A stretch of DNA of 64,000 bases from Raja brachyura (GCA_963514005.1 OY740796.1:43152001-43216000); one strand, 5' to 3'. Numbered from the stretch's first letter, positions 540 through 55,080 are shown. Made by a program: numbers and translations. Notes: generated by a model not told the origin, from the sequence alone.

Positions 540-950
540 ATGAGGATAGTTCAGGACCAGAGGGCACAGTCTCAGAATAAAAGGACGTACTTTTAGAATG
601 CAGATGAGGAGGAATTTATTTTGCCAGTGGGTGGTGAATCTGCGGAATTGATGGCCGCAGACAGCGGTGGCGGCCAAGTTATTGGGCATTTGTAAAGCGG
701 AGATTGATAGATTCTTGATTAGTAAGTGCGACAAAGGTCACGGGGAGAAGACAGGAGAATGAGGTTGAGAGGGAACAATAGATCAGCCATGATTAAATGG
801 CGAAGCAGGCTCAGTGAGTCAAATGGTCTAATTCTGCTGGGGTACATAAAATGCTGGAGAAACTCAGCGGGTGCAGCAGCATCTATGGAGCGAAAGAGAT
901 AGGTAACGTTTCGGCTTCAGACTGGCCTAATTCTGATCCTGTGTCTCATG
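540..950 (+). mobile_element. CR1 LINE 3' fragment interrupted by a Penelope-type insertion
   Basis: ACCAGAGGGCACAGTCTCAGAATAAAAGG...GATCAGCCATGATT...CTAATTCTG. Confidence 0.8.
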
Positions 951-2925
951 ATCAAAAGAGGAAACTCAGCAGGCCAGGCAGCATCTGCAGAGAGAGTTGG
1001 ACAGTTTTGTGTCCGAAGAAGGGTCCTGTCCTGAAAAGTTGTCTGTCCATTTTCCTGATCAGATAGAGTGAGGGGTGCTGAGCACTTGCGTTTTGTTTTG
1101 CATCTCATTGGTAATGTTGTTAAATAGGCCTCTTCCGGAATTAATTCATACAACCGTGTTCTAAACTGCAGAATAATATCATGTACTCTGTGAGATCTTT
1201 CCTATTGTACTCACTCGATCCCCTCAATATATAATATCAACCAGACTGTCCTGCAAAGAACATTTAATATCTTAGGTAATTTCCCCAGCAATCTTTGAAC
1301 AAGATAACCTTAGGATAATTTCTTGGGCATCTTACCTTTCATCTCCAACCATTAATAACTAACTTTTCTGGCTCATTTATATATTAATATAAATGAGCCA
1401 AATAACCCTTCACATGATTAATATAAATGTTGTTTCCTTAGGGTTGTGGTTCGAGTCAGGATTTGGTTTTGTTATTAATTTTGGCATAATTAATGTCACC
1501 TCCTCCTGCACCTATTTTCTGTGTTTCTATGGGTTATTGATTTGGGACGATCAGTCATGATCACAATAAATGGCGGTGCTGGCTCGAAGGGCTGCATGGC
1601 CTCCTCCTGCACCTATTTTATAATTCCCTTTTTGGCATTTTCAACCTGACTCTGCCAATGCTGCCCCATATATTTGCACTAAAATTGCTAAAGTGGTGCC
1701 TGGTTTGTTTATTAACAATACTTCATAGTGGCATTGCACCATATGTTCTGCTCAAGTTAAACGTCTGAATTAATGAATCCACTGGTAGCAAAAAAGTCAG
1801 TCTTAATGTAATCATTCCCCATCAGAGTGCAGTGCATAGGTTTACTAACCTGTATTGCCGTAAGCAACTTACAAAATACATTAATACATCACTCCACAGA
1901 GAAGCTGTCCATCAAGTATTTACACTAATATAATTAGACAAACATTTTAAATAGGACGATAATTTTGAACATTACTCTGGAGATCCTTGATAGGCCCAGA
2001 TGGTGGCTAGTTGTACCGTAAATTAGCAATTACATGAAATTGTATTGAGTATTATATAACTCATCTTGTTGTTGTTTAGAAAGGGCTTCTGCACCTCCAG
2101 ATGAAGAATTTGCAATCTGTGAAGGCAACTGGAATTAAAATTAAGCTGATTTCCAACATGTAGTGCACAGTGTTTTTATCTCACAAGGTTGAATTCTGTC
2201 TGCAGTGATCAATATTAATGCAAGATATAACTTCCCGAAGCCTTGTGCATTTTACACACAGCTCCAGTCCCTGGCTCAGACCAATAACTCCCTGTGGAAA
2301 ATGTTTTTCTTGCTGTACCACAATGAGAAAGTGTGTTAGAGTGAGTGAATTTGGGCTGCACTGATCATAAGTGACTTCAGTTCCCTGTGAAAATGAAGCT
2401 TTTGTCAAATGCAGATTTTAATTTGTTTTTTTTTCCCCATTGAGACAGCTTCTGAAATAAGGCTACTAATTCTGGTGCTATGCCCTTGTGCCAGATATAT
2501 TAGAAGAGGTTGACTGCTCTTGCTTACGGATCACTTTTGAGTGACCTGTTTAGAAAATTGCTAATAATTACTCCCTTGAATTATTACATTGACTGGTCGG
2601 TGAATAGCCATGTATTCTCAGCAAGGACATCTTTTGGCTTTCTTCGTACAGACAAAGGTCACATCTTGCCATATTTTAATTACTTAGTGTGGAAAATGGC
2701 ATGTTTTCATTAGTTCATTTTAAAGATTAGTTTTGAAATGATAATGCAAAGAATAGTTCAGACATTGAGGGATTTATTGGCAAGTTTCAATCTAAAAAGG
2801 TCGGAAAAGCGTTGATAAGAGGACGTGGCTGAATATCTCTTTTCAAATTGCACCTTGATGCCGTGACAGGAAAAATATTTAAAATGCTTATAATTTTTTT
2901 CTAACTTTTTTTTTTTTCACGACAG

Positions 2926-3015
2926 CAACAACTTCAGGAGTTTTATAAGAAACAGCAAGAACAGTTACATCTACAGCTTCTGCAGCAACAGCATGCAGGG
3001 AAACCTACAAAAGAG
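2926..3015 (+). CDS. FOXP1: FOXP1-like internal exon, Q-rich region ([30 protein letters not shown])
   Basis: Branch-like CTAAC at 2901, poly-T tract, CAG acceptor ending 2925, donor GAG|GTATGT; 90 nt, phase 0-0; the peptide is the [16 protein letters not shown] motif. Confidence 0.92.
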
Positions 3016-3082
3016 GTATGTGTGTCCATGTATTTATGTGTGTATTGCAAAATAATAAGACATAATTAAAAAAGGAAATGGC

Positions 3083-3103
3083 AGAGAGAGAGAGAGAGAG
3101 AGA
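3083..3103. repeat. (GA)n microsatellite
   Basis: About 10 GA units, ~70 nt downstream of the exon donor. Confidence 0.9.
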
Positions 3104-5439: not shown

Positions 5440-7023
5440 GGTGTGCAACATTACATGGGGTGTGATCATCACTCATCGAAGCCGTCTAAGTGCTTAAAAT
5501 GAAGTGCTTGTGGATGCAAAGGGTTACTCTTGCAACTGCCATCCAGCAAATGCACATCTGACAATTTACAGAAGACGAATGGGGAGTAACCCAGGGAAGG
5601 AAAGTAGACCTTTGACAAGTATTTGAGGGAGGGAAGTGTGGTACAAGTTTATCTGGATATTTCAGGATTTCAACACTAATTATTGACCTGACAACAGAGC
5701 TGTACAGAGACCTTTTTTGTATGCATTGAATTGTAAGAAGTAAACAAGCTTGGTTGTATCCTGTGTTTGATAACTGGGTGGGGAGTGCACTTTGGCAGCA
5801 TATTTTGTACGTTTAAATTTTTTTTCTCTGACAATGGGCCTTGTACATTTTACATCCTGATTTTTCATTTCTTAAAATTCTCATTCTGGGTTTTCCTACA
5901 GACGAGTGTGTGTTAAATGGGAACAACATCCAACAGTGAATCCTGATAAATACTATAATGAAGTGAATGGTTTGGCTAATGGCACGTAATCTAAGATACA
6001 ATATCAGGGCAGAAAGATATTTAACCAGTGTGGCTAATAATTTAATTTCCATTCCCAAATTATTAGGCATGGTCTAGATAACATCGTCATGGTTTGTTAT
6101 GAATTATGGTAAATATCCGAACGTTAGATAATTTCCTTCCATTTATTGTAGTTACAGAACAGTATTATCTTTGTATCAATCAGGTAATTATTACAGGAAA
6201 TCTGTGTAAAGGTTTGTCTGTATAGTAGCCAACATTGTGCCATTATTCTTGGTCACTTTTCTGCTGCCGCTGCCCCTTCCCCCCTCCATCTCCCCCTCCC
6301 CTCCATCTCCCGCCCTCCCCTCCTCTCACTATCAGCAATTGTGGGGAGTGGGGAAGTGCAGTATTAGTGAATTTATAGAATATAATATTCCAGATAAAGA
6401 TTAGAGGAAAGGATTTATGCCATTATCTTATTTCCCTGCAGGCAGATATAATTGACGATATTATGTTATTTCCAACCAACCATTGCATTCTGCCTGGGTA
6501 GGACCTAGTTACACTTGAGGGCCTCGAAGGTTGACAGCAGTTGCATCAGGACACTCTCCAGTTCAAGCTTAACACATGCCTAGTTTAGGTGACAGCAAAA
6601 ATGGCAAAAGAAGTAGGATAGCGGCATTCATTTGAATGCATTGCAATACATTCCACACTTGTTCCCACATCCACTCTGTTAGCCAGTCAGGGTTACACAA
6701 AATCAGACAATTTTGAACAGGCCTCAGATAAGTCAGGAAGCATGGAGGGTTGTTTGAGACATTTAGTTTGATTTTGGGTCCAGTGGAGTAATTGGCCATT
6801 TTTAAAGTAACTCGAGTTTTAATCGGCAATTTCCAACCATCCCTTTATGAACCAAAGCTGGGGACTCGCACCAAGACTGTGGGGTTGGGATAAGGCGCTT
6901 CTCTTTTCCAAAACTAGAGCTTGGAGAAAAGCACTTCCACTGCTCAATCATGAATACATCTGTAAGATGTCAGGTGGACCAGCACCACGTATTGTGCTTG
7001 AGCAGCTTACTACGATTTCTCTA

Positions 7024-7198
7024 ATAGACAATAGGTGCAGGAGTAGGCCATTCGGCCCTTCGAGCCAGCACCCCCATTCAATGTGATCATGGCTGATCAT
7101 CCCCAATCAGTACCCCATTCCTGCCTTCTCCCCATATCCCCTGACACCGCTACCTTTAAGAGCCCTATCTAGCTCTCTCTTGAAAGTATCCAGAGAAC
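7024..7198 (-). mobile_element. CR1/HER1 3' tail
   Basis: ATAGACAATAGGTGCAGGAGTAGGCCATTCGG...CTCTCTCTTGAAAG. Confidence 0.85.
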
Positions 7199-7520
7199 TT
7201 CAAGTAACCCTTGTATGTCTTCTCTCTCTGTCCGTCCCCCACCCTAGTCGGCGTATTAGTTTTACTCTCATCCTGTTCAGTTCCGCTGTTTGTGTAACTC
7301 ATTATCACCCACCCCACAGACCACTCTGGGCTCCACATTTCCTTGATCATCGTTGCTTTCTGCGTATCCCCATTCATTCGTCCTAAGTACCGTCTATATC
7401 TCTAGTTTCCCTTTCCTTTGACTCTCAGTCTGAAGAAGGGTGTCGACCCGAAACATCACCAGTTTCTTTTCTCCAGCACTGCTGCCTGACCCGCTGAGTT
7501 ACTCCAGCTTTTTGTGTCTG
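7199..7520 (+). mobile_element. Penelope-like element 3' region ending in a hammerhead-bearing terminal repeat
   Basis: CTTCAAGTAACCC (similar to the ORF end at ~38520), pyrimidine-rich UTR, CTGAAGAAGGGTGTCGACCCGAAACATC at 7430, then the shared GCTGAGTTACTCCAGC..TTTGTGTC block. Confidence 0.7.
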
Positions 7521-10384
7521 TAAGATGTCAGTCTTGTATGCTGGTCTATAACAGTGCTATTTACTCATTGGCACTGTCTGAAAAGAGGCTTGAATCCAAT
7601 CTTTCTGAGATGGAGACAGAAATCCTACAACTGAACCAAGGGCGATTCACTCATCTGAAGGCATGCTCCTTGGTCTCAATCAGTGTTTGGAGACCGTGAC
7701 ATGGAAGAATCCAGTTTTTGTTCACTGATGCTACCAGAAAAGGTGGTAGAAATTTTCAACCAGTGTGGAACTCAAGTTAGTCTCCCATTAAATATAGAAT
7801 ATTACTTTAAGAAAAAGAATAATTCATTATATTTGACACAATTCCTTTAAAGGAAAAAAAAAGGAAACCTTGTCTTCGTTAATCAATAAACTTACTATCA
7901 TTAATGTTCTTTTAAAATTATGGAATGGCAATTAGCTGGTAATCAAACCATGTAGGACTTCCTTACGATTGTTCCGCTTATTCATGGGGAAATCCTGGCT
8001 CGTGCAGTGGCATTCAGTGATGTGCCATGTGTACCTGGTTGCCACTTCCATAATCTTCAACGTCACGTGCTTGATTGGCATTACCTACAGAAACAAGCCT
8101 TTGAACCAGCATAGCAGGAGGATTCCCTTTAAGTAATTATGTATGTGTATGTGCCTTGGGATAAACTTTATCGTGTACTATTGCAGTCATGAGCACCTCA
8201 AGGTCCGGACCGCTTGCAAGGAGATCCTTTCATAACAATATTCCACCTGCTTATCCCCTCCCACTCCTGACTCCAGATATTTTCCTAGACTCAACTCCTG
8301 ACGTCCTTGCAATGACCAATTATGTCTCTCAATCCCACAAACCTTGGTCTCCAACTGCTGATTAGGTCTCCCAATGAAACCAGGTCCACTCTACTAACCC
8401 CCCCCCACCCCCCCACCCACCCACCAAGTAGCAATAAACAGTGAGTTTGTGTAGCCCTATTTCATCTACCAGTTGCACACTTGACTTAGCTGCATTGACT
8501 GTTCTCTCCTATTCTTACAGCGAGGCCATACATCTGATCCTCAACACTTTCTTTCTTCCTCCTTTGCAATGGTAGCGATCTCAAAATCTTGACCGACCCC
8601 TTCTCCTCCTCCACCGCCTCCAGCACCATACTAACCTGCGCAAAAATATCGGAGGTCTCTTCCCTGCAAATCTAACCCAGTTTTACCCGCATTCTGTTAG
8701 AATTCATCATGGAAGCGCCTTTCTATAATACAAGGCCAATTTAGTGGCAAGGTCCCGCACTTTATTGAACCTAGTGATAGACCACAACCAAACCATCTTT
8801 TTAACTATCTTTCACATAAAACCTTGGAAATAGAAACACAAAATGCTGGATATACATAGCAGGTCAGGCAGGATCTGTGGAGAAAGAATCAGAGTTAACT
8901 TTACAGGTCATCAATGCTGCCTGCCCTACTGAGTTTTTCGAGTATTTTCTAATATTTTTATACATAGTTCCAGCATCAGCTTTTTGACTAATTCCCCCAT
9001 TCAGGTGTTAACATATTTCTAGCCAGAAATTTAAGAAAGTGGCCCGACCCAAAACGTCATCCATTCCTTCTCTCCAGATATGCTGCCTGTCCTGCTGAGT
9101 CACTCCAGCATTTTGTGCCTATCTTCGGTTTAAACCAGCAGCTGCAGTTCCTTCCTGCACCCTTTTTACTCAAATGGAAAGCAACTTAAATTTTAATTGG
9201 AAAAATAATCAAGTATTGTGCATAACAGCAAACTCGTAAACATATTTTCCACAGAAAATAAAGATGAGTGGGAGTTTTCGTGTGAAGTGCAAGCCTCAGG
9301 TTTTAGCAGTTTGCAGTTAACAACCGATGGGTAGGTGGTGTATCCAAACTCCTGTTAGATTCCCTCTTCAGAAATGTTTTGTTCAAAAATTAATATCAGG
9401 AACTAAATTCATTTAGAAACAATGCAAGTCAAGAACTGCCAATTTCCAAAGTTTAATGAGAGATTTTAAAGCAAATTTGTTTAAGATTATTATGTCCCTG
9501 AACAGTCACCAATTCAGTGGAGATAAAAATATAAGCAGCAGCTTTAAAGTCTTGCTTTTGAGTGTAGGAAGAAGGGAGTGTTGACGAATATAGTTATGTC
9601 TGATTCGTTTTCTTGCTTTGACTCAGTACCCCGAATTTTAGTTGGAGAATGTGGTCAAAGTGGTCAAAAAGATAAAAAGGCTCAGCAAATGTGCTACTAA
9701 TTGATCAGCATTTGACAATGGAATTTGCATGCGTTTATATTTAGCATCTGGTCATGCATCATATATACCACAAAATGTAATTATTGAGAAAACTATTTTT
9801 GGCCTGTGACATGAACATTGTTTTGTGGGTGTAATTTTCAGTAATCTTGATGTAACTAATAGATCAAACCAGATCTGTTCTTGTTAAGTTGTTTTATAAT
9901 TTCACTCTGTGGTCCAAAATGCCATCACATTCCATAAGTGATGAAATCGAGATGCGTGTATTTTTTCATACAATTTGATTTATCAGTTCTTAAAATTTGT
10001 CATCAGTGCAGTTTTATTTTTCTTAGTGGAATCGCAGAAACCTCAGGAACCATTCAAGTCCATTGTGCCCACATAGTCCAGCTAGCCAAGGAAGCAAATG
10101 ATTCTATGAAACTTTATCACCACATGTACCTAGGTACAGTGAAATGCTTTGTTTTACATACAGCCCGGTAAAAAACGTACAGCAGACCTCACTCAGGCAG
10201 TTCACGTGTCGCCATGTTTTGGCGCTGTCAATGTTACCAAAGTTCACCGAATAGTCCCATCTACTGTCTGCCACCACATGTGGCAGGTGCTCCCACCGAA
10301 GAAGAGTTATTTAGTCTATTCCCACCTCCCTGATCCCATAGCATCACCTTTAGGTTTTGACTTATCAAATGTTCATCTAAGAGC

Positions 10385-10594
10385 GTGTGAGAAGAAACCG
10401 CAGATGCTGGTATAAACCGAAGATAGACACCAAAATCTGGAGTAACTCAGCGGGACCGGCAGCATTTTTTGGAGAGAAGGAATGGGTGACGTTTCGGGTC
10501 GAGATTCTTCTTCAGAGTCTAAAACGTCACCCATTCCGTCTCTTCAGGGATGCTGCCTGTCCCGCTGAGTTGCTCCAGATTTTTGTGTTCATCT
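10385..10594. mobile_element. Palindromic Penelope-derived short element
   Basis: Inverted arms GGAGTAACTCAGCGGGAC..GAATGGGTGACGTTT / AAACGTCACCCATTC..GTCCCGCTGAGTTGCTCC; minus-strand CTGAAGA...GAAACGTC. Confidence 0.8.
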
Positions 10595-10756: not shown

Positions 10757-11395
10757 ATAGACAATAGATGCAGGAGTTGACCATTCGGCCCGTCGAGCCG
10801 GCACCGTCATTCAATGTGATCATGGCTGATCATCCACAATCAGTACCCCGTTTTTGCCTTCTCCCCATATCCCCTGATTCCTCTATCTTTAAGAGCCCAA
10901 TCTAGCTCTCTCTTGAAAGTATCCAGAGAACCGGCCACTCGGAGGCAGAGAATTTCACAGACTCATAACTCTCTGCGTGAAAAAGTGTCTCCTCATCTCC
11001 GCTCTGTTCAAGCAAAAGCGGTTGAGGGGAAACCTGGTAAAAGTATATAAAAGTATGAGAGGCATGGATAGGATAGGCAGAACCTTACTTCCCAGGGTGG
11101 AAATATCAAATATGAGAGTGCATAGTTTTCAGGTGATTAGACCAAAATTTAAAGGAGATGTGCGGGGCAGGTTTTTTTTCACAGCGGATGACGAGTGCAT
11201 GGATCGTGCTACCAGGGGTAGTGGTTGAGGCAGATATGATAGTGACATTTAAGAGTTTTTTGGATAGGCATGTGGATGTGCAGAAAATAGAGGGATATGG
11301 ATTATGTGCAGGCAGTTAAGAATTGGTCTTGGCATAAGTTTGGCATAAACACTGTGAGCTGTAAAGCCTGTTCCTGTGCTGTACTGTTCTATGTT
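10757..11395. mobile_element. Two CR1 fragments (minus 10757-11003, plus 11005-11395)
   Basis: HER1-type tail on the minus strand; RLRGNLVKVYKSMRGMDR CR1 motif on the plus strand. Confidence 0.8.
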
Positions 11396-12043
11396 CCAAA
11401 ACACAAAGTGTTGGAGTAACTCGGTGAGTCAGTCAGCATCAGTAGAGGAAATGGATATGAGGCGTTTTGGTTCTGCAGTCTTCTTCATTCTGATCTCTCA
11501 AAGTTAGATAGTCCATACCTATCAATAGTATTTTAGAATTTTCTGAAGTCCAGATTAGTACTGATTGTGGCTTTCACCGAGTATAATTTCTACACACCTT
11601 AACGACTGACAATTTGGTGAGCAGTGCAGAGACACACTGGTAATTAAAATACTAAATACATATAAGGTTAAATTAACATGGAAATAACAATTCATTAATC
11701 ATGAACAAAATCGAAGCTTAAACAGTGAAGCACGAGTTAAAAATCAGGATGGAGTAATTAGATCAGGGAAACAGACTTCTAATAAGCAGATCAAAAAAGG
11801 GGACAGGGAAGAAAGAAAATATGTCTTAGATGATGCCTGCAATTGCTGAGCTATATGGGATTTCAGCACCATTCCTGTCCTGGTGGACCATGTTTGAAGG
11901 TAGTGCCTCCAGTTGACCAGACTGAAGTTTTAGATTTCGAAGGATGAGAGAGGTCGAATGTTGCCTGGATTGTTGAGAGCAAAGGGTGGGCATTCAGTCA
12001 GCCCGAGTCAGTTAGGGAGTGCAAATGACGGGCCATTCGAAAG

Positions 12044-12484
12044 TTGTAAGAAGGAACTGCAGATGTTGATTTACACTGAAGATGGATGCAGAGCGCTGGA
12101 GTAACTCAGCGGGCCAGGCAGCATCTGGAACTCTCTGCCACAGAGGGTAGTTGAGGCCAGTTCATTGGCTATATTTAAGAGGGAGTTAGATGTGGCCCTT
12201 GTGGCTAAGGGGATCAGAGGGTATGGAGAGAAGGCAGGTGCGGGATACTGAGTTGGATGATCAGCCATGATCATATTGAATGGCGGTGCAGGCTCGAAGG
12301 GCCGAATGGCCTACTCCTGCACCTAATTTCTATGTTTCTATCTCTGGAGAAAAGGAATAGGTAACGTTTTGGGTCAAGGCCCGTCATCGGGTGGAAGGTC
12401 TCAACCCAAAATGTCACCTATTCCTTTACTTCAGAGATGCTGCCTGATCCCGCTGAGTTAATCCAGTACTTTGTGTTCATCTTT
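12044..12484. mobile_element. Palindromic Penelope-derived element with a nested CR1 tail (about 12125-12340, +)
   Basis: Left arm split at GCAGCATCT|...|CTGGAGAAAAGG; flanks GGCCATTCGAAAG (12031) / GGCCATCCAAAAG (12485). Confidence 0.8.
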
Positions 12485-12811
12485 GGCCATCCAAAAGGAC
12501 GGGGGAAAGCAGAGTCTTCAAGATGCGTGTCAGTCTCAAATCAATGTAATTTTTATTAGAGAGAAGTGGAGTCGACGGTTTCTTGAGGGAGTGCGGTCAT
12601 CAAGCTGGAATGTTGGGCCAAAGGGCAACAAAGCAGCGCTCAGCAAAATGTCAAGTTGCAGCTGTCACTGGGGTTTCACTGATGAGGAATCTCACAAATT
12701 GTCTGCACTGTATTTTTCCTTAAACTTAAACGGTGAAGCTAATTCAAAATAAAAGGTTAAATGAAAAAAAGACCTGGGTGAGTTAGTCCACAAGTATTCT
12801 CAGGGTGAATT

Positions 12812-13038: not shown

Positions 13039-13098
13039 TGGAACAAGCCAGAACTCTGCCAGATTGACAATCATCCATGTGTTAGAATGTCTGAATGT

Positions 13099-13138
13099 GT
13101 GGGTCTGAAGAAGGGTCTCGACCCGAAACGTCGCCCAT
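13099..13138 (+). ncRNA. Putative minimal type I hammerhead ribozyme in a Penelope-derived repeat
   Basis: GTGGGT-CTGAAGA-A-GGGT(CTCG)ACCC-GAAA-CG-TC-GCCCAT: helix I GUGGGU/GCCCAU, CUGANGA and GAAA core boxes, helix II, palindromic ACGU in place of helix III, GUC cleavage triplet. Confidence 0.7.
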
Positions 13139-13267
13139 CTCCTTCGCTCCTTAGATGCTGCTGCACCCGTTGAGTTTCTCCAGTGTTTTGTGTAACCATC
13201 CATGTGTTATTGTTCCTTGTGTATGGAGGACCTGCAATGAAAATTGTGGATGACCCAACTTATGTAA

Positions 13268-16455: not shown

Positions 16456-17257
16456 GTGTGCATACAGCATTAGGGGAAGATCTGACTGTTTTTGAGCAGC
16501 AAAGTAAAAGGAAATGCACTCCGTTGAGTCTATATTTCATGATTTCAAGCTTCTTGTCCATGGCAGCACTCGGAAGTGACCACCCCCTTTACCTGTAGCC
16601 TCCGTAATTGAGATCAACCTTTAAGTTGACATTGCCAGTGGTAGATTTCATTGTCTACGATGATTACTACGTGTCCTTGCAATTGGCACTGCAACATCTG
16701 GGCTCATTGCAAATAAAGTTACCCACTGGTGGATCCTTTAGCTTGAGGAACATTTAGCAGCAGTACTCATGCAGAAATAGTACAGAGAAGTTCACAGCAC
16801 ACAAGAGGGAAACTCAACTGCACAGCATGCAAGACACTTGACTGCCACAGCAGAATTCAATAAAATTAATTTAATAACGATAATACTTCCATTTTATATA
16901 AGCTTGTTGAGCTGCCTCAGTGCATCTCACATAATGGCCTACTTTTGCGATGCAGGGGAAACTTTTTTTTAACGCATTAACGTTTTAATCAATTTTGCAA
17001 TGTTTTTTGCGCTCGACATTTTATTGCATTTCCATGACTTAATCTGCTCTTCCTCCATGCGTATGATGCACTTTATAATTTTTAAGGGACAAGACAATTT
17101 GTTTTCTGCAATTGCTGGTCCCATTTTCAGAGGGGCAACTATACAGGGTTTCAATTATTTCCTCAATATAAGGTAGAACAGATGACTGTTGTCATTACCT
17201 TATGATAAAACATTTTAATGTCTAATGGGCCGTTAATCTAACTTTAATCTGATGCTA

Positions 17258-17406
17258 GACGCAAAATGTTGGAGTAACTCAGCGGGACAGGCAGCATCTC
17301 TGGCGAGAAGGAATGGGTGACGTTTCGAGATGCTGCGTGTCCCGCTGAGTTACCCCAGCATTTTGTGTCTATCTTCGATTTAAACCAGCATCTGCAGTTC
17401 TTATCC
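17258..17406. mobile_element. Palindromic Penelope-derived short element with deleted centre
   Basis: GGAGTAACTCAGCGGGACAGGCAGCATCTC / GAGATGCTGCGTGTCCCGCTGAGTTACCCC. Confidence 0.8.
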
Positions 17407-20570: not shown

Positions 20571-21920
20571 CACCTTGAGTCTAGATCTTCTGTTTATACG
20601 GCAGACATAGGAAAGCAGGTGGCTTGGCATGTGCAATAACAAGCATGCTAATTTTCATGATACTCCCTTGAAAATCTACCACTCATTTGAGGTCATTCAC
20701 AGCGTGGACCCTACCCAAAGACCAGGTTTTGACCAAATGATTTAGACCTGTTTTTATGCTAACCAAATAGCTGTCATTTCATTGACTGTCTCCAGGAAAC
20801 TTGAACTATTTGAGTTGTCCAACTTAGGTTTCCTAGTTATTCATCTCCCTAACTACCTCCCTGCCCCGGTTTTAATGCCCCTACCGCTTATCCGTGAGAG
20901 TCTCCCAGTAATCCCATCTGCCAACCTCCCCTACCCTCAGCATGGTCCCAGTTTCCACTTGGCCTGAAGAAGGGTCTTGACGTGAAACATCACCCATTCC
21001 TTCTCTGCAGTTCCTTCCTAACCAGTTCCTACTTCCTGTTTTCTGCAACTGACAGGAGATTGTAGAAGAATGGCCATATGTATCAATTTATTCAGGTAAG
21101 GCTATTCCACGGTGCAAAATACTCTCTTGATTCAAAGTTAATGAAAATATAGATCTGTACACTCTTTCCAACGCAGACGGATTGGAGAGATGAATTTAGA
21201 GCACCTTCCAATTGTTACTCTCATCCAATCTCCTTAAACTATATTTACTGCTCAAAGGGGCACGTTTTTTCGGCATCAATTGCCCACCTTCAAAATTAAA
21301 CATTATGAAGAGAATGAAAATTAATTATTTTGATGGCAATCAATGTTTACTTTTTCAATTTTATGTGTAAAGGCCAGCACATTTTGTAAAACACGGGTGA
21401 AGCTCGGTCAAAAAACAAGTGGAAAATAAGTCATTAAGAATTGAAGTTGAATCAAAGAGAGCCTCAAGATTTATTGGCCAAGCATCATTTGATCTTTTTT
21501 TTAAATACAATGCAGAACCTTGAATTTAAAAGTTTTAATCAGTCAACTATTTGGATGTTTCAAAATCCATAGGGGATCTCTGATAAAACCAGATGAGGCA
21601 TGCCATATGATTAATCTTAACCGATTTGTCTAGAGAATTTGTATAATCTCTCTGTTACAGCATCCAGTCTTTTTGAAATTTGTTTCAAGATTGCTGAATC
21701 ACAGCTTCACTCAGTCAATTTGACGTATTATTTGCTCCTTATGTGAAGACAACCTCATTGACATCTAGTCACTAGTTTGGATCTGGGTACATTCTTCCCC
21801 TTCTCGCATCCACAAGCTTGTAAACTCTAGATAAGGAAAATTACTCGATTAACAAATGTTTTTCGTACATAAATTGTACATAGTGTAGATTGTGCTAATG
21901 ATCATTTCTTGATAAAGTTA

Positions 21921-22195: not shown

Positions 22196-22356
22196 TAAGT
22201 TACTCAGCGGGTCAGGCAGCATCTCTGGAGAAAAAGGATGGATGATGTTCCCTTCGTCTGACCTGAAGAGGGTTCCGCCCGAAACATCACCCATCCTTTT
22301 TCTCAGGAGATGCTGCCTGACCCGCTGAGTTACTCCAGCACTTTGTGTCTATCTTT
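22196..22356. mobile_element. Palindromic Penelope-derived element with plus-strand hammerhead-like core
   Basis: CTGAAGA-GGGTTCCGCCC-GAAACATC at 22263 between inverted arms. Confidence 0.75.
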
Positions 22357-23153
22357 TTGTATATGAAAGTGTCTGGGCCGTTCGATTAGAGGTATGACTT
22401 ATCCAGAAACGATCACTGGCACAATCTACCTTGGGTACAAAATGAATGATTCATGCACGAAAAATATTTGTTAATAGTTATTTCCTTATCAGAGTTTACA
22501 AGCTTGTAGACGCGAGAAATGAGGAAGAAGGCATACAGATCCAAATTAGTAACTCACAGTTTATGACTGATATCAATGAGGTTGTCTTCACATAGCAAGC
22601 AATTGATACATCAAATTGACTGAGTAATGCTGTGATTCTGAAATCTTGGAATAGTTTTCAAACTGACTGGATGTTGTAACGGAGAGATTATACGACTTCT
22701 CGAGACAAATCGGTTAAGATTAATCACGTAGCTTTCTTCATTTGCACCTTGCCAGTAGAAATGGAAGTTAGTCAGCAACCTACAACCTTGGTTGAAAACT
22801 CACAACCACGTGAAGCACAGTATAATTTAAAAAATACAAAGAATTAGACAAGGTGCTCAGCGGGCCAGAAGGCATCTCTGGAGCATATGGATAGGTAGCC
22901 TTTTGGGTGTTGGGTGAAATTTCAATAGATGTAATTTCAGACCGGACATAAAACTGCTTCCTGTAACAATTTCAGACACACGGCCAGGTTCCTATTAAAT
23001 TTTTCCCCTCCTCACCTTAAGTAGGTGTTGCCATTTTGCAAACACAAGACAAGTGGTTTCATCAGTGTGCGTGAATATCAGCAATCTTTCGATCGTCTCG
23101 ATCATGACATTTCTCCCAGATGCACACCAAGGGCCAGGCTTCTTATTCTAGAA

Positions 23154-23352
23154 TGTGCCGGAAAGAACTGCAGATGCTGGTTTAAACCGAAGATAGACAC
23201 AGAATGCTGGAGTAACTCAGCGGGACAGGCAGCATCTCTGGAGAGAAGGAATGGGTGACGTTTTGGGTCGAGACCGTTTTCGAAACGTCACCCATTCTTT
23301 CTCTCCAGAGATGCTGCCTGTTCCGCTGTGTTACTCCAGCATTTTGTACCTA
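23154..23352. mobile_element. Palindromic Penelope-derived short element
   Basis: ~70-bp inverted arms; flanks TTCTTATTCTAGAA (23140) / TTCTCTTTCTAGAA (23353). Confidence 0.82.
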
Positions 23353-23895
23353 TTCTCTTTCTAGAAGATTACTTTTGCCACCTGCTGCTGTGATCTTCGA
23401 ACAGCAGAGCACGTGTGTTTCCTGACCACCTCTCACCCATTCTTGCCCAGAATCTCCCTGTGGTTCGCTTTCTAGACGATTAAAATGTTAACACTCCCTG
23501 TCAAAAACTTAGTGCCATCTCCCTCTCCTTGGCAGCCTTCTCTCTCTCTTCCCTGGCAGCCGTAATGTGTGTTAGTGCTGTTTGGCTGCCACGGGGAGTG
23601 TTCCCTGAAGGTCTGGTGTGCATCAGGCAGTGTTCCATAGCAAAGCTGTGCTAAGTCGGACACACTCCTATCTGGAATTACACTGATCTTGTTTCAGCAT
23701 CAATAATTTTTGTAAATCGCCGTTGCACTGTGCCGAACATATTTATTTGCCCAATTCCACCAGCCTTTTTTGTGAGAGATCCAATTGGACACGTGTAACA
23801 CACCAAATAAAGGATGAATCCCGATTTTCAGGTTTGGTGGATCCGCATTGGCCCAGAGTTTGTGCTCAAAATACAGAACAGATAGTCCAGAAGTA

Positions 23896-26627: not shown

Positions 26628-26849
26628 ATAAAGTGCGGATTAGATCAACTTTACAAGGAAGGTCATCTCAGTTTCCAGTATTAATTTATCCCAATTAGGT
26701 GCAATGGCTTTTTGGTACAAAAAGAAACAATTAGCAATAATATAACGATGATAGACACAAAATGCTGGAGTAACTCAGTGGGACAGGCAACATCCCTGGA
26801 GGGAAGGAATTGGTGACATTTTGGGTCGAGAACCTTCTTCTTACCAATA

Positions 26850-35991: not shown

Positions 35992-36163
35992 GGGTACACA
36001 AAAGGCTGGAGAAACTCAGCAGGTGCAGCAGCATCTAAGGAGCGAAGGAGATGGGCGTCGTTTCGGGTCGAGACCCTTCTTCAGATAGATGCTGCTGCAC
36101 CCGCTGAGTTTCTCCAGCCTTTTGTGTACCCTCGATTCTCCAGCATCTGCAGTTCCTTCTTTA
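35992..36163. mobile_element. Palindromic Penelope-derived element with perfect 17-bp TSD
   Basis: ACACTGATTGTACACTG at 35975-35991 and 36164-36180; minus-strand CTGAAGAAGGGTCTCGACCCGAAAC. Confidence 0.88.
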
Positions 36164-38394: not shown

Positions 38395-38578
38395 TCAGCG
38401 AGGGTGGAGCCCATAATGGCCCATTGTTGGCTGGGGAAGGTATGATAACAAAGAGGGATCCAATAAAGTGGAACTGGCAGGGTGATTAGGGTGGGGAGGA
38501 GAGGAGGGAATGCTGGAGTTACTTCGAATTAGGGAAATCAACGTGAGTTGTAAGCTGCCCAAGCAAAATATGAGAGGC
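38395..38578 (-). mobile_element. Penelope-like element fragment: end of GIY-YIG ORF and 3' UTR
   Basis: Minus strand reads LIFCLGSLQ / VDFPNSK*, resembling the vertebrate PLE C-terminus LIFxLGxLxPxGxNxxF, followed by a pyrimidine-rich UTR like 7199-7330. Confidence 0.6.
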
Positions 38579-40440
38579 TTTCCTTTTTAAAATTTCTTCT
38601 AGCTTTTAAGTATGGCAGAAAGATTCCCTCTCTTACACATCCTATCATCCCCTCTTAACCGTTTAAAAGCTATGATCAGTTGTTTCCCTTCAAAATTCCA
38701 GCAATATAATCGTAGTTTGTGGAGGAATGTAATCCAGGGAATCTAGATATTGTTCTGGCAATTTTAAACTGCACACATGCCTGAGCTGTTGCATCCAGGA
38801 TTGCACCCCGTGTGTGGTCTAATTGGGACTATGTAAAGGTGTAGCACAATTTAAATTCCCTTTCATGTTGCCTTTCCTGGTTTTATTTATTTTTTGTTCT
38901 GCACCTCCTATTACATTTTCAATTGTGCAATGGTGCTTTATTGTCACACGTGCAAAACACAGTGAAATTATTTCTGAGCCGCCAGGTTTGGCACCTTTTC
39001 TAAAATCCGGTCCACGTGCTAGGTGTTATGGAGCGGCACCCAATCCAGGCAAGCCCCAGGCTGCAGCAGGGCCTCCAGCCATTGCCTTTGTCTGCATTGT
39101 TCCTCTCCTTGCCCAGACACCTAATAATCCATGATCTAATTAATAACCTAACTTCAAATAATCTATGAACTCTTATATCTTTTTGGCTCATTCAGTGTTT
39201 CTAACCTTTCTTTTAATACAAAATCCCATTTACTTTTAGATTTAAAACATCTTTGTTCCTTGGAAGTTTTAACACTTTAACATTTAAGCAACAGTTCAGA
39301 TTTAAACATTGCTAATTGAAGTGGTCAGATGCCTCTGTTCCTTAAACTTTCCTTTAATCATCGCACATAGAGTGCTGTTGGGTCAGTCCAGGAATACCAA
39401 CTTGTGTACGTCAATGTGAAATTCACAGCTGGTGAATTGCTACAAAGAGTGGATGTAATAGTATTGAAGCATGCTATTAAGCTAGCACTGAATTGAAACT
39501 GTGCTGTGCAGCATTGCAACAAATTGGTCATGGATTTTAAGAAATACCTTCAAATGCATTGAGTTCTCAATTTCAATCTTTCCTCTGCGAAAGAGTCAGG
39601 ATTGGCTAGGTTTATGTTCATAAAATAAATCAACAATCAGAGAGACAATTTTCATTGCCTCTGACAAAATTAACAGCAGATCATCAAGTGTCATTGGTTG
39701 GGGCTAGGGACAAATTCATGTACTTCACCAGAAGAAATACTCAGCATGTTGATACTCCATAAAAAGAAAGGCGAATAATAACCACTAAATTCTGCTATGA
39801 TTATCTGTGGACTGGAGTGATGTCGTTTCAGATGAAAGCTTGAATCTATCTTTGAAGGGGACCAGCTGAATGTAATGTTTGAATGTAAAAGTAACATTTT
39901 CGAGGACTTCTCTTTTTTCTTTAAGTTTTGCAGAATATGCTCTTTTAAACCAGAGCCTCTCTGCAAGGTGCTTCAAGTATAATTGTGAAGTATCTTAATA
40001 ATGAGAATCCTGATGACATTGTAATGCAGAACGGGGGACGCGGTTTATGACTCAGTTGTTCAGAGATAGCATCTGACTGTTCACCGCAGGACCTGGATCA
40101 ATTGTGCCTTGTGAAGTGCAGTCAAATCCTCCTTTCAGCCCAGTTATAACTAGAAGATGAGCAATATAGGTAAATGCACTTAATACTAAATCACAAACAG
40201 AAGTTTATTTTGGGAGTATTGCTAGCTTTTAGTTCCCACTGCTTTTCTCATGGTTTCACTTTGCTCCCCTCTGTCACGTTTCTTCGGCATGAAGACAAGA
40301 TGATAGATTTACGACTTCTTAATTGCTTTTCTTTAAGTTTACGTCCACTAAAAGATGTCTTAAGTTCTTCTGAACTTCCCCTCACATTTCCCATGTAGAG
40401 ATTAGGAGGCTAAGATCAGCCATGATTGAATGACGGAGTA

Positions 40441-41656: not shown

Positions 41657-42187
41657 CGAGATCATAATTTATTCAGAACACATTGTCATTTGTTGTTGGA
41701 AAAAACAACAAACGTAAACGTTTAAGATATGGTAGCCATTCCCCAGGAACGCTAATTTGGCAATTAGTGTCCAGTTCTGTGTACTCTCAAATTAATTCTG
41801 TTGATGTCAGTGGAATGATCCTTGGAAGCAGAGCGCACTCATTTGCCACCATTGACCAGGGATGGATTTCTTGGCAATTGCATTTTTATTCCTTTCTGAA
41901 TTCAGAGTAATCCTAAATAGTGTGCAATCTTAGCTGTGTGTACGGTTAATTTTTAACAGTGAATATTTGTTTCCTGGTTTTATTGCCTTTACAGTAAATA
42001 TTACCACATACTAAAGAAATGACTGGTTTAACATTAACAATGAGCAAAAGGCTGCAGTGAAGCTTGATGGTTAACGATATGGATGTGTTTGCTTCATTAA
42101 GTACTTACCAACATTCAAAGTTTGTTTCTTCTAGACCATATCTATGTGAGGATTGTAATGTAATAACGATATTTTCTCCCTTTGCAA

Positions 42188-42285
42188 GTCGGATGAAGGG
42201 TTTCGGCCCGAAACGTTGCCTATTTCCTTCGCTCCATAGATGCTGCCACACCAGCTGAGTTTCCCCAGCACTTTTGTCTACCTCC
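42188..42285 (+). mobile_element. Penelope-derived single arm with hammerhead-like core
   Basis: CGGATGA-A-GGGT(TTCG)GCCC-GAAACGTT; the first core box carries a U-to-G change. Confidence 0.75.
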
Positions 42286-47917: not shown

Positions 47918-48144
47918 NNNNNNNNNNNNNNNNNNNNNNNNNNNNNNNNNNNNNNNNNNNNNNNNNNNNNNNNNNNNNNNNNNNNNNNNNNNNNNNNNNN
48001 NNNNNNNNNNNNNNNNNNNNNNNNNNNNNNNNNNNNNNNNNNNNNNNNNNNNNNNNNNNNNNNNNNNNNNNNNNNNNNNNNNNNNNNNNNNNNNNNNNNN
48101 NNNNNNNNNNNNNNNNNNNNNNNNNNNNNNNNNNNNNNNNNNNN
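47918..48144. other. Assembly gap (227 N)
   Basis: Run of n. Confidence 1.
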
Positions 48145-48771: not shown

Positions 48772-48984
<213 letters not shown>

Positions 48985-49519
48985 TAGATATTATTATTCT
49001 CTTCTTAATAATGTTTCTATAATCCTTCCATATTATAGAATTGCAAGACTTTAGTAATAATTACAAAGCCGAAGGGTTCCAACCTGAAACATCACCTGTC
49101 TATTCTCTCCCCAGATGTTGCTCTACCCGCTGAGTTCCTTCAGCACTTTGTGTTTAGCTAATGTGTTTGTTATTCCTTCTGTGTTTTTTCTGCACTTCTA
49201 TTATCTTCAATTTGTATGCTGCTTCCAAAATGTAGTTCCATTGGGACAGAATTTCAGAAGCAAGCTACAGCAAATAGACATGATCTATTGTGCATTTAGC
49301 AGGACTGGCCAGTATGTTTTGCTGCATTTTCTAAGGCATTACCCTTCCCAATGGACTTTTTAAGAGGAAGAAGAGGCTATATTTACACAGTCTTTATATT
49401 AGCACCATGTAGATTGAAGTGGTACTCCTTCATATTTGTGCTTCACCAGATGTTTGAAGCCAGACTAGGAATGTGCCACCACAGAGGGCAGAATGAAATA
49501 AATGAAATAAATTCCTTGC

Positions 49520-52308: not shown

Positions 52309-52733
52309 CGGCATGGTGCAGCTGGGAGAGCTGCTGCCTCACAGTGCCAGAGACCCAGGTTCTATCCTGATCTCAGATGCTATCTATGTGGAGTTTGCAT
52401 GTTCTCCCTGTGGCTGCTTGGGTTTCCTTCGACATCCACAGAGGGCTGTGGAGGCAAAGTCAGTGGATATTTTTTAAGGCAGAGATGGACAAATTATGAT
52501 CCCAAAAGCATGCAGGTTTGTAGGTTAATCGGCCTCTCTAAATTGTGTTGGGAGTGGATGCAAAAGTGAGATAACATAGAACTACTGTGAAAATAGACAC
52601 AAAGTGCTGGAGTAACTCAGCGGGTCAGGCAGCATCTCCGGAGACTCTTCATCAGACTGTGCGCAGACACAGTAGGACTCAGTGAACTGAGAACTACTGT
52701 GAACGGGTGATCAATGGCCAGTGTGGACTCTGT
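52309..52733 (+). mobile_element. V-SINE with a nested CR1 scrap and a nested Penelope-type insertion (52592-52689)
   Basis: SINE head and V-domain; 14-bp TSD AGAACTACTGTGAA at 52578 and 52690. Confidence 0.75.
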
Positions 52734-52835
52734 TTAATCAATTCAACCTAAGGATGATTAATAAGTGTGCACGCTGTTGTTTTTGATTGTTGTGGTTTTA
52801 CTGGGGAATCTTAACATGTATTTTCTTTTCTGCAG

Positions 52836-52919
52836 CTTGCAAAAGACAAAGAACGCTTGCAAGCTATGATGATACACCTCCATGTGAAATCAACTGAACC
52901 AAAACCAACTCCTCAGCCT
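52836..52919 (+). CDS. FOXP1: FOXP1-like exon, end of leucine zipper ([28 protein letters not shown])
   Basis: TTTTCTGCAG acceptor, CCT|GTAAGT donor, 84 nt, phase 0-0; [18 protein letters not shown] is FOXP1-type (FOXP2 reads LSKERERL..HLHMRPSEPK). Confidence 0.94.
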
Positions 52920-54681
52920 GTAAGTAGTGATCTTGTGGGAGATGGAGATAATTGCGTGAAATGATCACTTTGTTACATACATCCGACTTTGTATCTCTTT
53001 GCCTTTGAAGGGTTTTTATATTCACCTTTTCTTAATGTAAAAGTATTACAATACTTTTAATGTCATCGTTTAATGTATCTTGTCATGAAGACATGGGTAT
53101 CAGAAAATTCACAAGTGTGCCGATTTTGATAACAAAACTTCCAGCCCACTGATGACTGTGCCATTTAAGTTGTGGATTAATATACTTATCAACAAAAAAG
53201 TAAGAAATATTAGAAGTGCTCGAGTGACGGGAGTTTTAATATTAAACGATCTGCACTACAAATTCCATGTTAAATTCCCCTCAACCGCACATAACCTATC
53301 CAATGAAGGACAATATTTTACGTCAGTTCCTGCCTTTCTTCCTGTGTGGTACAGTAGGCATATACGTCACCTGGCACTCAGGATATCAGATTCAGAGTAT
53401 TTGCACATCTTTGCTATAAATGTAAGAGTGCTAAATCCAAGCTGTTGTAGGATAGCAGCCTAAACGGGTAACCCACAAAAAGTGGAGAAACTGGTTTAAA
53501 AACATTTTTCAATTTGAACCACATGTGAAAAAGTTACCTTCGTATTTTTGGAATCTGCCCGCAGAGCTTGCGGCTCATATATTATTGCTGTGTTGACCCC
53601 TTTGAACAGATCTCAAAGGCATAATCCATGGTGGCCATTAAACGACAGGATCAAAGATGAGAGGACAATGGTGGGGAATGGCTGACATGGTACCTTCTGT
53701 GTGTTTGGGCATTTGTCTCACTATTTACTGGACAAAGTCCTCACCCCCGCCATGTGGCGCAAACCACTGTGAGATTTAGACTCATCGAGAGGATAGTTAT
53801 CACAAGAGCAAGTGGCAAAACCAGAGTGATGCTGCAATCTCGGTCAGTGATACACGCAGACTAAAACGGAGCACGTAGAAACGGTTCTGGTGGAGGCTGT
53901 GGGGAAAACATTGATGTTGCGGTGGGGTTTCTTTACTTAATGTCACTTTGACGTGTGTGTAGAATTTGTTTCCCCGTGAGTGAAATATGGGGCCATAGAT
54001 CACATCTTTAACGGCAACGCAGAGGTGGCCACTGTGCATCAGAAAGCATGATTAGATGCGCATTAGATACATTAAGGTGAATCTGTCTTAGAATTGCCGA
54101 GACCAATTTTCCAACGGTCACTAATCAACTTGGAAAAGATCACTAACACCATTTAACCTGCGGGTAATGGCTCTTAAGTGCAAATCTTGCATAAAAACTG
54201 CACAAATGTGTCCAATTTCTAGGCACCGCTCAACCGGTAGAGAGAGTATTTCCATTACTGCATCGTAGAGAAATGTAAATAGCACTCACGGAAAAGGCCG
54301 TTTGACCCTCTTTGTCAGAAGAAGACAACATATTTTTGAAATATTCCTGCAGTAGAAGGGAAAAGAAAATCGTCTTTTATAAATGGGAAAAAAAAGTGAA
54401 AATACAATTTTTAATTTTTTTTTCTAAGATTTTTCTGATGCCTAAAATCAAGGAGCTGTGCTTGGCCATTCCAAAGAATAAGGTAAATAAATAATTTGTA
54501 ACGTTACAGCTAAAATGTAATACATTAGTGCACGTGGAACCACTTGCATATAGATAGTATTATTGACCCCTAAAATGCAGTTAGCAGGATTATGATGGGC
54601 CCTATCTTTGCCTCATTTAACTGCACCTTCTAACACTACTCATGACTCCCATTATCACAGAATCTTCTTCTGTCTTCACAT

Positions 54682-55080
54682 TTAGTTTAGTTTGGAGATA
54701 CAGCATGGAAATAGGTCCTTCAGCCCACCGGGTCCGCACCAACCCTCAATCACTGGGTCTCGACCCGAAACGTCACCCATTCCTTCTATCCAGAGATGCT
54801 GCCTATCCGGCTGAGTTACTCCAGCTTTTTGTGTCTATCTTCGGTTTAAACCAGCAACTGCAGTTCCTGCAGCAACTGCCTTAACTACACAAAGGGCAAT
54901 TTGCAGGGGGCGAGATAACCTACAATCCCCATGCCTTTGGGGTGTGGGGGGAAACCGGAGCACCCGGAGGAACCCACATGGTCACAGGGATAATGTGCGA
55001 ACTTCACGCAGACAGGGCCCGAGATCAGGATCAGACCCAGGGCTCCTGGTGCAGCGAGGCAGCAGCTCTACCTGTGCCGC
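54682..55080 (-). mobile_element. V-SINE with nested Penelope-type arm (about 54755-54870, +)
   Basis: SINE tail and head separated by GGGTCTCGACCCGAAACGTCACCCATTCC... Confidence 0.75.

What the first reader, a model, noticed from the sequence alone, without database searches (positions are those of the whole stretch)
841..54870. Dense family of short palindromic hammerhead-bearing elements (about 18 copies in 64 kb)
Seen: related ~100-200 bp units at about 841, 960, 7430, 8833, 9043, 10385, 11398, 12044, 13099, 17258, 20964, 22196, 23154, 26751, 30450, 35992, 42188, 49070, 52592 and 54755. Many are two inverted arms meeting at or near the CTGAWGAAGGG..CCCGAAACRT motif. Helix II varies while staying pairable (GGGT-CTCG-ACCC, GGGT-TTCG-GCCC, GGG-TTCCG-CCC). 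Copies at 7199 and about 20820 retain a pyrimidine-rich UTR, and a similar UTR follows the GIY-YIG-like ORF end at 38520-38578. Inference: a non-autonomous Penelope-mobilised family with at least two subfamilies (GGAGTAACTCAG and GGAGAAACTCAG). It could be misread as a DNA MITE because of its hairpin shape.
Basis: partly seen in the sequence, partly recalled or inferred. Interest (0 to 1): 0.78.

Follow-up and report, generated by a model that had tools for sequence, protein, structure and literature searches.

The report
Head-to-head Penelope retroelement stubs
The short hairpin-shaped repeats are real and very abundant, but they are the cut-short ends of a Penelope-like retrotransposon, a known kind of jumping gene, often landed as mirror-image pairs, and most have lost a working ribozyme.

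Summary
The family is real: 30 arms at 21 loci, none in 3 control sequences, all 20 listed positions plus one more. Each arm is the 3' end of a Penelope-like element (PLE): a minimal type I hammerhead motif, about 60 nt, and an optional ~35-nt tail. Eight of 21 loci are head-to-head pairs; all 8 centres differ. All 6 pairs with both ends intact carry the tail on one arm only. Target-site duplications vary from 11 to 17 bp, so this is not a MITE. One 15-bp duplication encloses a putative ORF end, a UTR, the hammerhead and the arm as one insertion (6974-7516). So the stubs look like 5'-truncated PLE insertions built anew at each landing, not a fixed palindromic unit. Inverted 5'-truncated copies, one-sided tails and minimal hammerheads are all published. 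Only 3 of 30 arms pass a hammerhead descriptor; helix II shows no covariation. No full-length parent was found, and the endonuclease match is by eye only. The added value is modest: the tail pattern favours two separate priming events over fold-back.

The parts
837..922 (-). Single arm, subfamily B, untailed, helix II region deleted; 13-bp duplication (824-836 / 923-935, one mismatch)
   Evidence: (p=0.013)
960..1055 (.). Decayed head-to-head pair of an older subfamily (960-1012 minus, 1008-1055 plus); outer ends lost
6974..7516 (+). Long 5'-truncated copy bounded by a perfect 15-bp duplication (6959-6973 / 7517-7531): putative ORF end (6974-7025 and 7199-7207), pyrimidine-rich UTR (7208-7429), hammerhead motif (C3 at 7430), untailed arm
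   Evidence: (p=0.010)
7026..7198 (+). Later insertion of another high-copy repeat (16 BLAST hits in the window, self included; 'CR1-like LINE end' is a recalled label) splitting the putative ORF end
8832..8980 (.). Head-to-head pair, older subfamily; left arm untailed and longer, right arm short and tailed; possible 11-bp duplication set 28 nt off the left end
   Evidence: (p=0.03)
9034..9159 (+). Single tailed arm, subfamily A; no duplication found
10382..10585 (.). Head-to-head pair, subfamily A; left arm tailed and starting at the core, right arm untailed; 12-bp duplication (10370-10381 / 10586-10597, one mismatch)
   Evidence: (p=0.007)
11395..11491 (-). Old single untailed arm
12045..12486 (.). 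Head-to-head pair, subfamily A; tailed left arm split by a later repeat insertion (about 12127-12339); 13-bp duplication with two mismatches read by eye (12031-12043 / 12485-12497)
13085..13196 (+). Single untailed arm, subfamily B, best-preserved hammerhead (C3 at 13105, 6-bp helix I, 4-bp helix II, ACGU palindrome); perfect 13-bp duplication (13072-13084 / 13197-13209)
   Evidence: (p=0.003)
17243..17403 (.). Head-to-head pair, subfamily A; left arm untailed and longer, right arm short and tailed; no duplication found
20805..21035 (+). Long decayed copy: possible ORF-end remnant, UTR, broken hammerhead at 20964, then a deletion that jumps from the arm into the tail
   Evidence: boundaries by eye
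22198..22355 (.). Head-to-head pair, subfamily A; left outer end lost; sister arms share four non-consensus letters
22833..22908 (-).
   Evidence: E=1.2e-07
23154..23358 (.). Head-to-head pair, subfamily A; left arm tailed; perfect 8-bp repeat flush with both ends (23146-23153 / 23359-23366)
   Evidence: (p=0.07)
26741..26844 (-). Single untailed arm, subfamily A
30447..30577 (+). Old single tailed arm, starts just before the core
35992..36163 (.). Head-to-head pair, subfamily B; left arm untailed and starting at the core, right arm short and tailed; perfect 17-bp duplication (35975-35991 / 36164-36180)
   Evidence: (p=0.003)
38400..38586 (-). Putative endonuclease-gene end (about 38520-38586, frameshifted) followed by a pyrimidine-rich UTR; no hammerhead or arm left
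   Evidence: no Pfam or Atlas match; lower boundary by eye
42187..42281 (+). Single untailed arm, subfamily B, starts 3 nt before the core; perfect 11-bp duplication (42176-42186 / 42282-42292)
   Evidence: (p=0.010)
49067..49166 (+). Old single untailed arm
52592..52689 (-). Single untailed arm with an internal deletion and a 31-nt 5' filler that partly mirrors the target; perfect 14-bp duplication (52578-52591 / 52690-52703)
   Evidence: (p=0.010)
54755..54872 (+). Single tailed arm, subfamily A, starts in helix II; no duplication found

Best explanation
These are extremely 5'-truncated insertions of an endonuclease-bearing Penelope-like retroelement, probably Neptune-type, made by target-primed reverse transcription. 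The element's endonuclease makes staggered nicks 8-17 bp apart (inferred from the duplications). Reverse transcription starts inside the RNA at one of two sites about 35 nt apart, which gives untailed or tailed 3' ends (two end classes shown; the mechanism is inferred from the in vitro work on the anole element). Copying usually stops after 50-130 nt, in or just before the hammerhead (start points shown; cause unknown). If only one nick is extended, a single arm results. If both nicks are extended, one from each start site, the two short cDNAs are joined head-to-head by end-joining, giving a palindrome with one tail and a centre unique to that event (anatomy shown; joining inferred). The hammerhead is a passenger inherited from the parent's terminal repeat, of the dimer-type minimal kind; most genomic copies are broken.
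For: Flanking duplications at p<=0.05 in 9 of 21 loci, about 1 expected by chance; those flush with or close to the element ends are 11-17 bp, plus an 8-mer at p=0.07. Copy 6974-7516 joins putative ORF end, UTR, hammerhead and arm inside one perfect 15-bp duplication. Its ORF end and the one at 38520-38586 resemble by eye the Neptune endonuclease C-terminus in Fig. S2 of PMC8557442. Two 3'-end classes: 9 tailed and 15 untailed of 24 arms with an intact 3' end. Six of 6 intact pairs have exactly one tail, p about 0.011-0.016 if tails were dealt at random. Eight of 8 centres differ. In 3 of 6 pairs the tailed arm is the one shorter at its 5' end, so it cannot be a fold-back copy of a target-primed untailed arm. 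In four public runs of four coded organisms, summed contig word depth rises steeply across the 7000 copy; in X1 from about 600-800 (ORF end) to 700-18,700 (UTR), 2.4-2.5 million (hammerhead) and 8.6-9.5 million (arm). Literature: inverted 5'-truncated copy and one-sided 30-40 bp tail (PMC8557442; PMC3846280); both strands cut and extended from two internal start sites (PMC11167929); minimal hammerhead with an extra base after A9 and palindromic 15.2-16.2 (PMC4209133).
Against: No full-length parent was retrieved: no genome is held and collection scans were empty. The ORF-end match has no statistical support (Pfam 0; Atlas none), so the endonuclease and clade labels are by eye. Twelve of 21 loci show no significant duplication. 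Sister arms share non-consensus letters in all 7 pairs tested (1-5 letters) and are mutual best matches in 2 of 7, which also fits one template copied twice, fold-back or later gene conversion. Depth is no copy number and is biased against the diverged UTR of the reference copy. The tail count rests on 6 pairs, with arm starts read partly by eye.
Confidence: 0.75

Rival explanations
1. A SINE-like non-autonomous family: a short RNA of about 100-130 nt that begins just before the hammerhead core is transcribed from stub copies and mobilised in trans by the PLE protein. The palindromes are still made anew, but the template is the short RNA rather than full-length mRNA.
For: At least 7 of 30 arms begin within about 3 nt of the core (841, 1008, 10393, 30450, 35992, 42188, 52592, by eye). 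Depth steps up more than 100-fold between 7380 and 7430, and head-to-tail joints land at 7422-7428 in 3-34 contigs per position (X1). Trans-mobilisation by the terminal repeat alone is reported (PMC3846280), as are non-autonomous PLE derivatives (PMC8557442; bioRxiv 10.64898/2026.07.22.740005).
Against: Other arms start in helix II, at GAAAC or 30 nt further on, and three copies reach into the UTR or ORF end. No tRNA-derived head. A reverse-transcriptase barrier at the pyrimidine tract would give the same step.
Confidence: 0.15
2. Same PLE origin, but the second arm is made by fold-back self-priming (on the cDNA or on an antisense RNA) and the hairpin is then trimmed asymmetrically by the endonuclease, as proposed for rotifer elements.
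For: Sister arms are always of the same subfamily (7 of 7) and share rare letters in three pairs (10393, 22198, 35992). The centre of 23165 holds a small extra inversion. Proposed in PMC3846280; 'EN-mediated resolution' is named in PMC8557442.
Against: In 3 of 6 pairs the 5'-shorter arm holds tail sequence that the longer arm lacks, which needs an added trimming step. Two-site, two-strand initiation is shown in vitro.
Confidence: 0.07
3. A DNA-transposon MITE whose terminal inverted repeats make the hairpin.
For: Arms are 85-98% complementary in the young pairs.
Against: Duplications vary in length, outer ends differ by a ~35-nt tail, centres differ, 13 of 21 loci are single arms, and one copy is continuous with a UTR and putative ORF end.
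Confidence: 0.01
4. Non-LTR retrozyme: tandem hammerhead units that amplify through circular RNA.
For: Type I hammerhead motif; head-to-tail joints in public contigs.
Against: No tandem array of the unit in the window; arrangement is inverted or single; 27 of 30 arms fail the descriptor; arms do not start at the cleavage site.
Confidence: 0.02

Closest known systems
EN+ Penelope-like element insertions with an inverted 5'-truncated copy and one-sided tail (PMC8557442 Fig. 2, passages read; PMC3846280, passages read)
   Same: Head-to-head inverted copy, 30-40 nt tail at one end only, strong 5' truncation, variable duplications of about 8-10 bp or none, solo terminal repeats.
   Different: Here both copies are cut down to 50-130 nt, so the whole insertion is a 160-210 bp hairpin with no ORF, at about one locus per 3 kb in this window.
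Poseidon from Anolis carolinensis, PAc (PMC11167929, main text parts 1-2 read)
   Same: Hammerhead followed by a ~100-nt region with two 3' end points separated by the tail; both target strands cut and extended.
   Different: The ORF end here looks Neptune-like rather than Poseidon-like (by eye). In PAc the ORF starts inside the hammerhead; no such conserved frame was established here.
Minimal type I hammerheads of metazoan PLE terminal repeats (PMC4209133, parts 1-2 read)
   Same: CUGANGA core, extra base before helix II, G10.1-C11.1 pair, palindromic 15.2-16.2, short helix I; mostly dispersed singles; pairs 100-700 bp apart on opposite strands were noted in Schistosoma.
   Different: Helix II is 4 bp rather than 7-8. 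Subfamily A has only a 2-bp helix I after a pyrimidine tract and CAG, as in the Drosophila virilis variant; copy 13105 has a 6-bp helix I.
Non-LTR retrozymes (bioRxiv 10.64898/2026.07.22.740005; introduction, methods start, discussion and passages read)
   Same: Short, non-coding, PLE-derived, type I hammerhead; reported in the one chondrichthyan genome sampled.
   Different: Defined as tandem arrays with intact hammerheads; these loci are inverted or single and mostly broken.

Membership tests
Penelope-like elements (EN+) | Parent element with RT and C-terminal GIY-YIG endonuclease upstream of the same terminal repeat | tested here: inconclusive
   ORF-end remnants at 6974-7207 and 38520-38586 resemble the Neptune C-terminus by eye; no Pfam or Atlas match; no full-length element retrieved.
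Penelope-like elements (EN+) | Hammerhead motif in the terminal repeat, downstream of the ORF end and UTR | tested here: met
   Copy 6974-7516 passes the descriptor at 7430; 13105 folds with helices I and II and an open core (z 0.03).
Penelope-like elements (EN+) | 30-40 nt tail present at one end only | tested here: met
   6 of 6 intact pairs.
Penelope-like elements (EN+) | 5' truncation with an adjacent inverted copy, head-to-head | tested here: met
   8 of 21 loci.
Penelope-like elements (EN+) | Variable-length target-site duplication | tested here: met
   9 of 21 loci at p<=0.05, lengths 10-17 bp.
Neptune clade | RT phylogeny and zinc-finger linker | not testable with these tools
   No RT sequence of the parent was available; only a by-eye match of about 10 C-terminal residues.
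Minimal (dimer-type) hammerhead ribozyme | Conserved core, helix II, palindromic helix III | tested here: met
   Met in 13105; partly in 7430 and 22263; 27 of 30 arms fail.
Minimal (dimer-type) hammerhead ribozyme | Covariation in helices | tested here: not met
   0 of 4 helix II pairs with a change on both sides; 188/500 shuffles reach the covariation score (15 decayed arms, low power).
Minimal (dimer-type) hammerhead ribozyme | Self-cleavage as a dimer | not testable with these tools
   Needs an in vitro assay; a co-fold of two 13105 copies paired through loop II rather than ACGU.
MITE (DNA transposon) | Fixed-length duplication, symmetric ends, shared internal sequence | tested here: not met
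Non-LTR retrozyme | Tandem array with two or more intact hammerheads | tested here: not met
   No array in the window; genome-wide not testable.
Non-autonomous PLE derivative propagating as a unit | Shared fixed 5' end or centre across loci | tested here: inconclusive
   Not met for palindromes (8 of 8 centres differ); single arms show a start cluster just before the core.

The most novel reading that the evidence does not exclude
Each palindrome is the footprint of a dimeric PLE particle that holds two RNAs, perhaps paired through the hammerheads' self-complementary ACGU much as retroviral genomes dimerise. One protomer primes at the near site and the other at the tail site on opposite target strands, and both stall at the paired hammerheads. 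A short RNA starting at the core could then feed this machine in trans and account for one of the most abundant repeats of these genomes. The hammerhead would act as a packaging and stop signal rather than as a cutter, and a very large set of genomic junctions would make the unsolved PLE integration step directly testable.
Probability: 0.2. Interest if true: 0.65.

Novelty: new member of a known kind. Interest (0 to 1): 0.3.

Why it matters
The parts are published, so a PLE specialist would not be surprised by the kind. Two points have some value. First, annotation: hairpins like these are easily filed as MITEs or microRNA precursors (Rfam gave sub-threshold microRNA hits on them), and they fill about 5% of this stretch of a FOXP gene's introns, with near-perfect double-stranded RNA potential in either direction. 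Second, mechanism: how PLEs make inverted repeats and tails is called unresolved in PMC8557442. Such short, complete insertions show both ends, the centre and the duplication in 200 bp, so a genome-wide count could separate two-primer from fold-back models.

Tried and rejected
Whole-genome search: no genome held. Exact-pattern scans of metagenome contigs and viral contigs: 0 hits, so no related loci or full-length parent. Rfam at E<=1: no hammerhead family; only sub-threshold hairpin matches. Pfam on the 26-residue ORF end and the ESM Atlas on residues 1-30 of that frame: nothing. A large protein search with that piece was not run, because about 11 informative residues cannot reach significance. 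A six-frame Pfam scan of the window was not completed, so larger PLE coding remnants are not formally excluded. Covariation of the hammerhead and of the downstream stems (1 of 12 pairs with a double change) gave no support; single arms fold no better than shuffles (z between -0.87 and 0.08). Sister-arm ranking was mixed: mutual best in 2 of 7 pairs, best one way in a third; the pair at 960 was not tested. Duplications at 5 of 8 untailed against 0 of 4 tailed single arms: p=0.07, not significant (the decayed arm at 22833 was left out). One weak profile hit at 29402-29433 (E=0.089, inside a host exon) was dropped. Expression: the one run laid as possible RNA (X17) was flagged probably DNA and all four were contigs, so nothing is shown about RNA, cleavage or circles. 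The idea that arms start at the ribozyme cleavage site was rejected: starts lie upstream of it or about 20 nt downstream. Literature searches for this family in cartilaginous fish found no description: (search listings only; open-access library only; Repbase and Dfam were not available). The dimer-cleavage paper by Lunse and colleagues was not held and is cited only through the review PMC6765202 (passages). The GenBank-format supplement of PMC11167929 could not be read and may bear on the comparison with PAc.


Full report
Setting. The window is vertebrate intronic DNA, 40% GC. Five exons of a FOXP gene lie on the plus strand near 2950, 29400, 42750, 48800 and 52870 (found with recalled motifs); the 48781-48870 exon matches Pfam FOXP-CC at E=2.5e-12. 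That the host is a cartilaginous fish, probably a skate or ray, is my recalled impression of the repeats and was not tested. No whole genome is held.

Observation. BLAST with four window copies and a profile built from 29 arms give 30 arms at 21 loci: all 20 positions listed, and one more at 22833. The reversed window and two shuffles gave no hit. In sense orientation an arm reads: hammerhead core CUGAWGA, one extra A, a 4-bp helix II, GAAA, a palindromic ACGU, the cleavage triplet, about 60 nt with a small GCUG/CAGC hairpin, and an optional tail of about 35 nt. Eight of 21 loci are two arms head-to-head with their 3' ends pointing outward; 13 are single arms.

The hammerhead. The motif fits the minimal type I hammerhead of metazoan PLEs, including the extra base after A9 and the palindromic 15.2-16.2 positions (PMC4209133, parts 1-2 read). 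It is mostly dead in this window: 3 of 30 arms pass a strict descriptor against 0.1 hits per shuffle, and only 13105 keeps both the palindrome and a 6-bp helix I. That copy's minimum-energy fold is the hammerhead fold, though no more stable than shuffles. Rfam found no hammerhead. The ribozyme call therefore rests on motif identity and context; cleavage is untested.

Ends and duplications. A search for direct repeats around each locus, against random flanks, gave p<=0.05 at 9 of 21 loci. Seven lie flush with or close to the element ends: 13, 15, 12, 13, 17, 11 and 14 bp. An 8-bp perfect repeat flush with both ends of 23165 has p=0.07. The hit at 8836 is offset by 28 nt, and at 12052 the script's 10-mer differs from the 13-mer with two mismatches that I read by eye. 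Variable lengths of this size point to target-primed reverse transcription, not to a transposase. Of 24 arms with an intact 3' end, 9 run through the tail and 15 stop before it. In all 6 pairs with both outer ends intact exactly one arm has the tail (p about 0.011-0.016). The 8 centres share at most 68% over 31 nt, although they are made of the same family sequence. The palindrome is therefore not copied as a unit.

Link to a coding parent. One perfect 15-bp duplication (6959-6973 / 7517-7531) encloses a 543-bp insertion. It starts with about 17 codons' worth of decayed coding-like sequence, split by a later repeat insertion at 7026-7198, ends that frame with a stop at 7205-7207, and runs through a 220-nt pyrimidine-rich UTR into the hammerhead and arm. 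A second remnant at 38520-38586 on the minus strand reads LIFCLGSLQ and, after a frameshift, DFPNSK-stop; the two remnants match at E=0.024 over 24 nt. In Fig. S2 of PMC8557442 the Neptune endonucleases end in WIFRLRTEHPQ-GLNE or LIARAGTLEPG-GLNR, while the Poseidon rows look different (one part of the supplement read). The resemblance is by eye; Pfam and the Atlas returned nothing. No full-length element could be fetched. Membership of the PLE class is thus well supported by anatomy, while the RT-endonuclease parent and the clade remain unproven.

Abundance elsewhere. I laid 4 of the 21 listed public runs (four coded organisms, all contigs) on 6960-7540 at 80% likeness. In X1 the summed word depth is about 600-800 on the ORF end, 700-18,700 on the UTR, 200,000 in the last 20 nt before 7420, 2.4-2.5 million on the hammerhead and 8.6-9.5 million on the arm, against 3.5-17 million on the inserted repeat. 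X2, X8 and X17 show the same shape. This depth is no copy number, and the diverged reference under-counts the UTR, but the step at the hammerhead's 5' edge is large and shared. Head-to-tail joints land at 7422-7428, and opposite-strand joints at 7427 occur in 17, 5, 5 and 3 contigs. The stretch just before the core is a pyrimidine tract ending in CAG, which recalls the intron end at helix I of the Drosophila virilis element; splicing here is untested.

Mechanism. Shown: two classes of 3' end, one tail per pair, unique centres, variable duplications, starts clustered in or before the hammerhead, and deletions that skip helix II (841, 10522, 22198, 52592) or the downstream stem region (20961) (by eye). 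Inferred: staggered nicking, internal initiation at two sites as shown in vitro for the anole element, which cuts and extends both strands (PMC11167929), early termination, and end-joining of two cDNAs. One argument separates this from simple fold-back. In 3 of 6 pairs (8836, 17243, 35992) the arm that is shorter at its 5' end is the tailed one (start positions entered by hand). A fold-back copy of a target-primed cDNA cannot contain tail sequence that its template lacks. Against this, sisters are always of one subfamily and share rare letters in three pairs, which fits one source template, fold-back with trimming (PMC3846280), or gene conversion. Six pairs cannot settle this.

Comparison and novelty. 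Inverted 5'-truncated copies, one-sided 30-40 bp tails, solo terminal repeats and dispersed minimal hammerheads, including opposite-strand pairs, are all in print. Retrozymes are tandem and are not what is seen here. Five literature searches found no description of this family in cartilaginous fish, but Repbase and Dfam could not be checked. Two earlier notes of this scan from other genomes reach the same reading; they are unchecked AI notes and add no independent support.

Verdict. The Penelope reading is right and the MITE reading wrong; a fixed non-autonomous palindromic family is not supported. New member of a known kind, interest 0.3. The boldest reading not excluded is a two-RNA dimer paired and stalled at the hammerheads (probability 0.2, interest 0.65).

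Noticed in passing
window 2950, 29400, 42750, 48781-48870, 52870 (+): Exons of a FOXP-family gene (FOXP1-like by recalled motifs; FOXP-CC confirmed). All the stubs from 7000 to 52689 lie in its introns; single arms are 8 plus and 5 minus, no clear bias.
   Followed up: partly
window 7381-7429: Pyrimidine tract ending in CAG one base before the hammerhead's helix I; looks like a 3' splice site and coincides with the depth step and with joints at 7422-7428.
   Followed up: partly
window 13085-13104: Twenty bases between the duplication and the core extend helix I to 6 bp plus a distal stem; could be subfamily B's own upstream sequence or repair filler.
   Followed up: partly
window 8915, 17327, 36086: The three 5'-short tailed arms all start at the AGATG that can pair with CAGCATCT in the tail; the deletion at about 21005 skips the same stem. 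It may be a stop point for reverse transcription (n=3).
   Followed up: partly
window 18080-18343 and 19961-20281: A second, unrelated family of inverted repeats with 89-90 nt arms, related to each other; possibly a true MITE.
   Followed up: no
window 218-384, 7026-7198, 10759-10931, 12828-12998, 41014-41186 and others: A high-copy LINE-type 3' end (16 hits) that has inserted into two of the Penelope copies (7026, about 12127); inverted pairs of such repeats at 4271-4473, 15380-15594 and 35506-35973.
   Followed up: no
window 52661-52689: A 31-nt filler at the 5' junction contains an inverted copy of part of the target duplication, suggesting templated end-joining.
   Followed up: no
window 47918-48144: Assembly gap of 227 N.
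   Followed up: no
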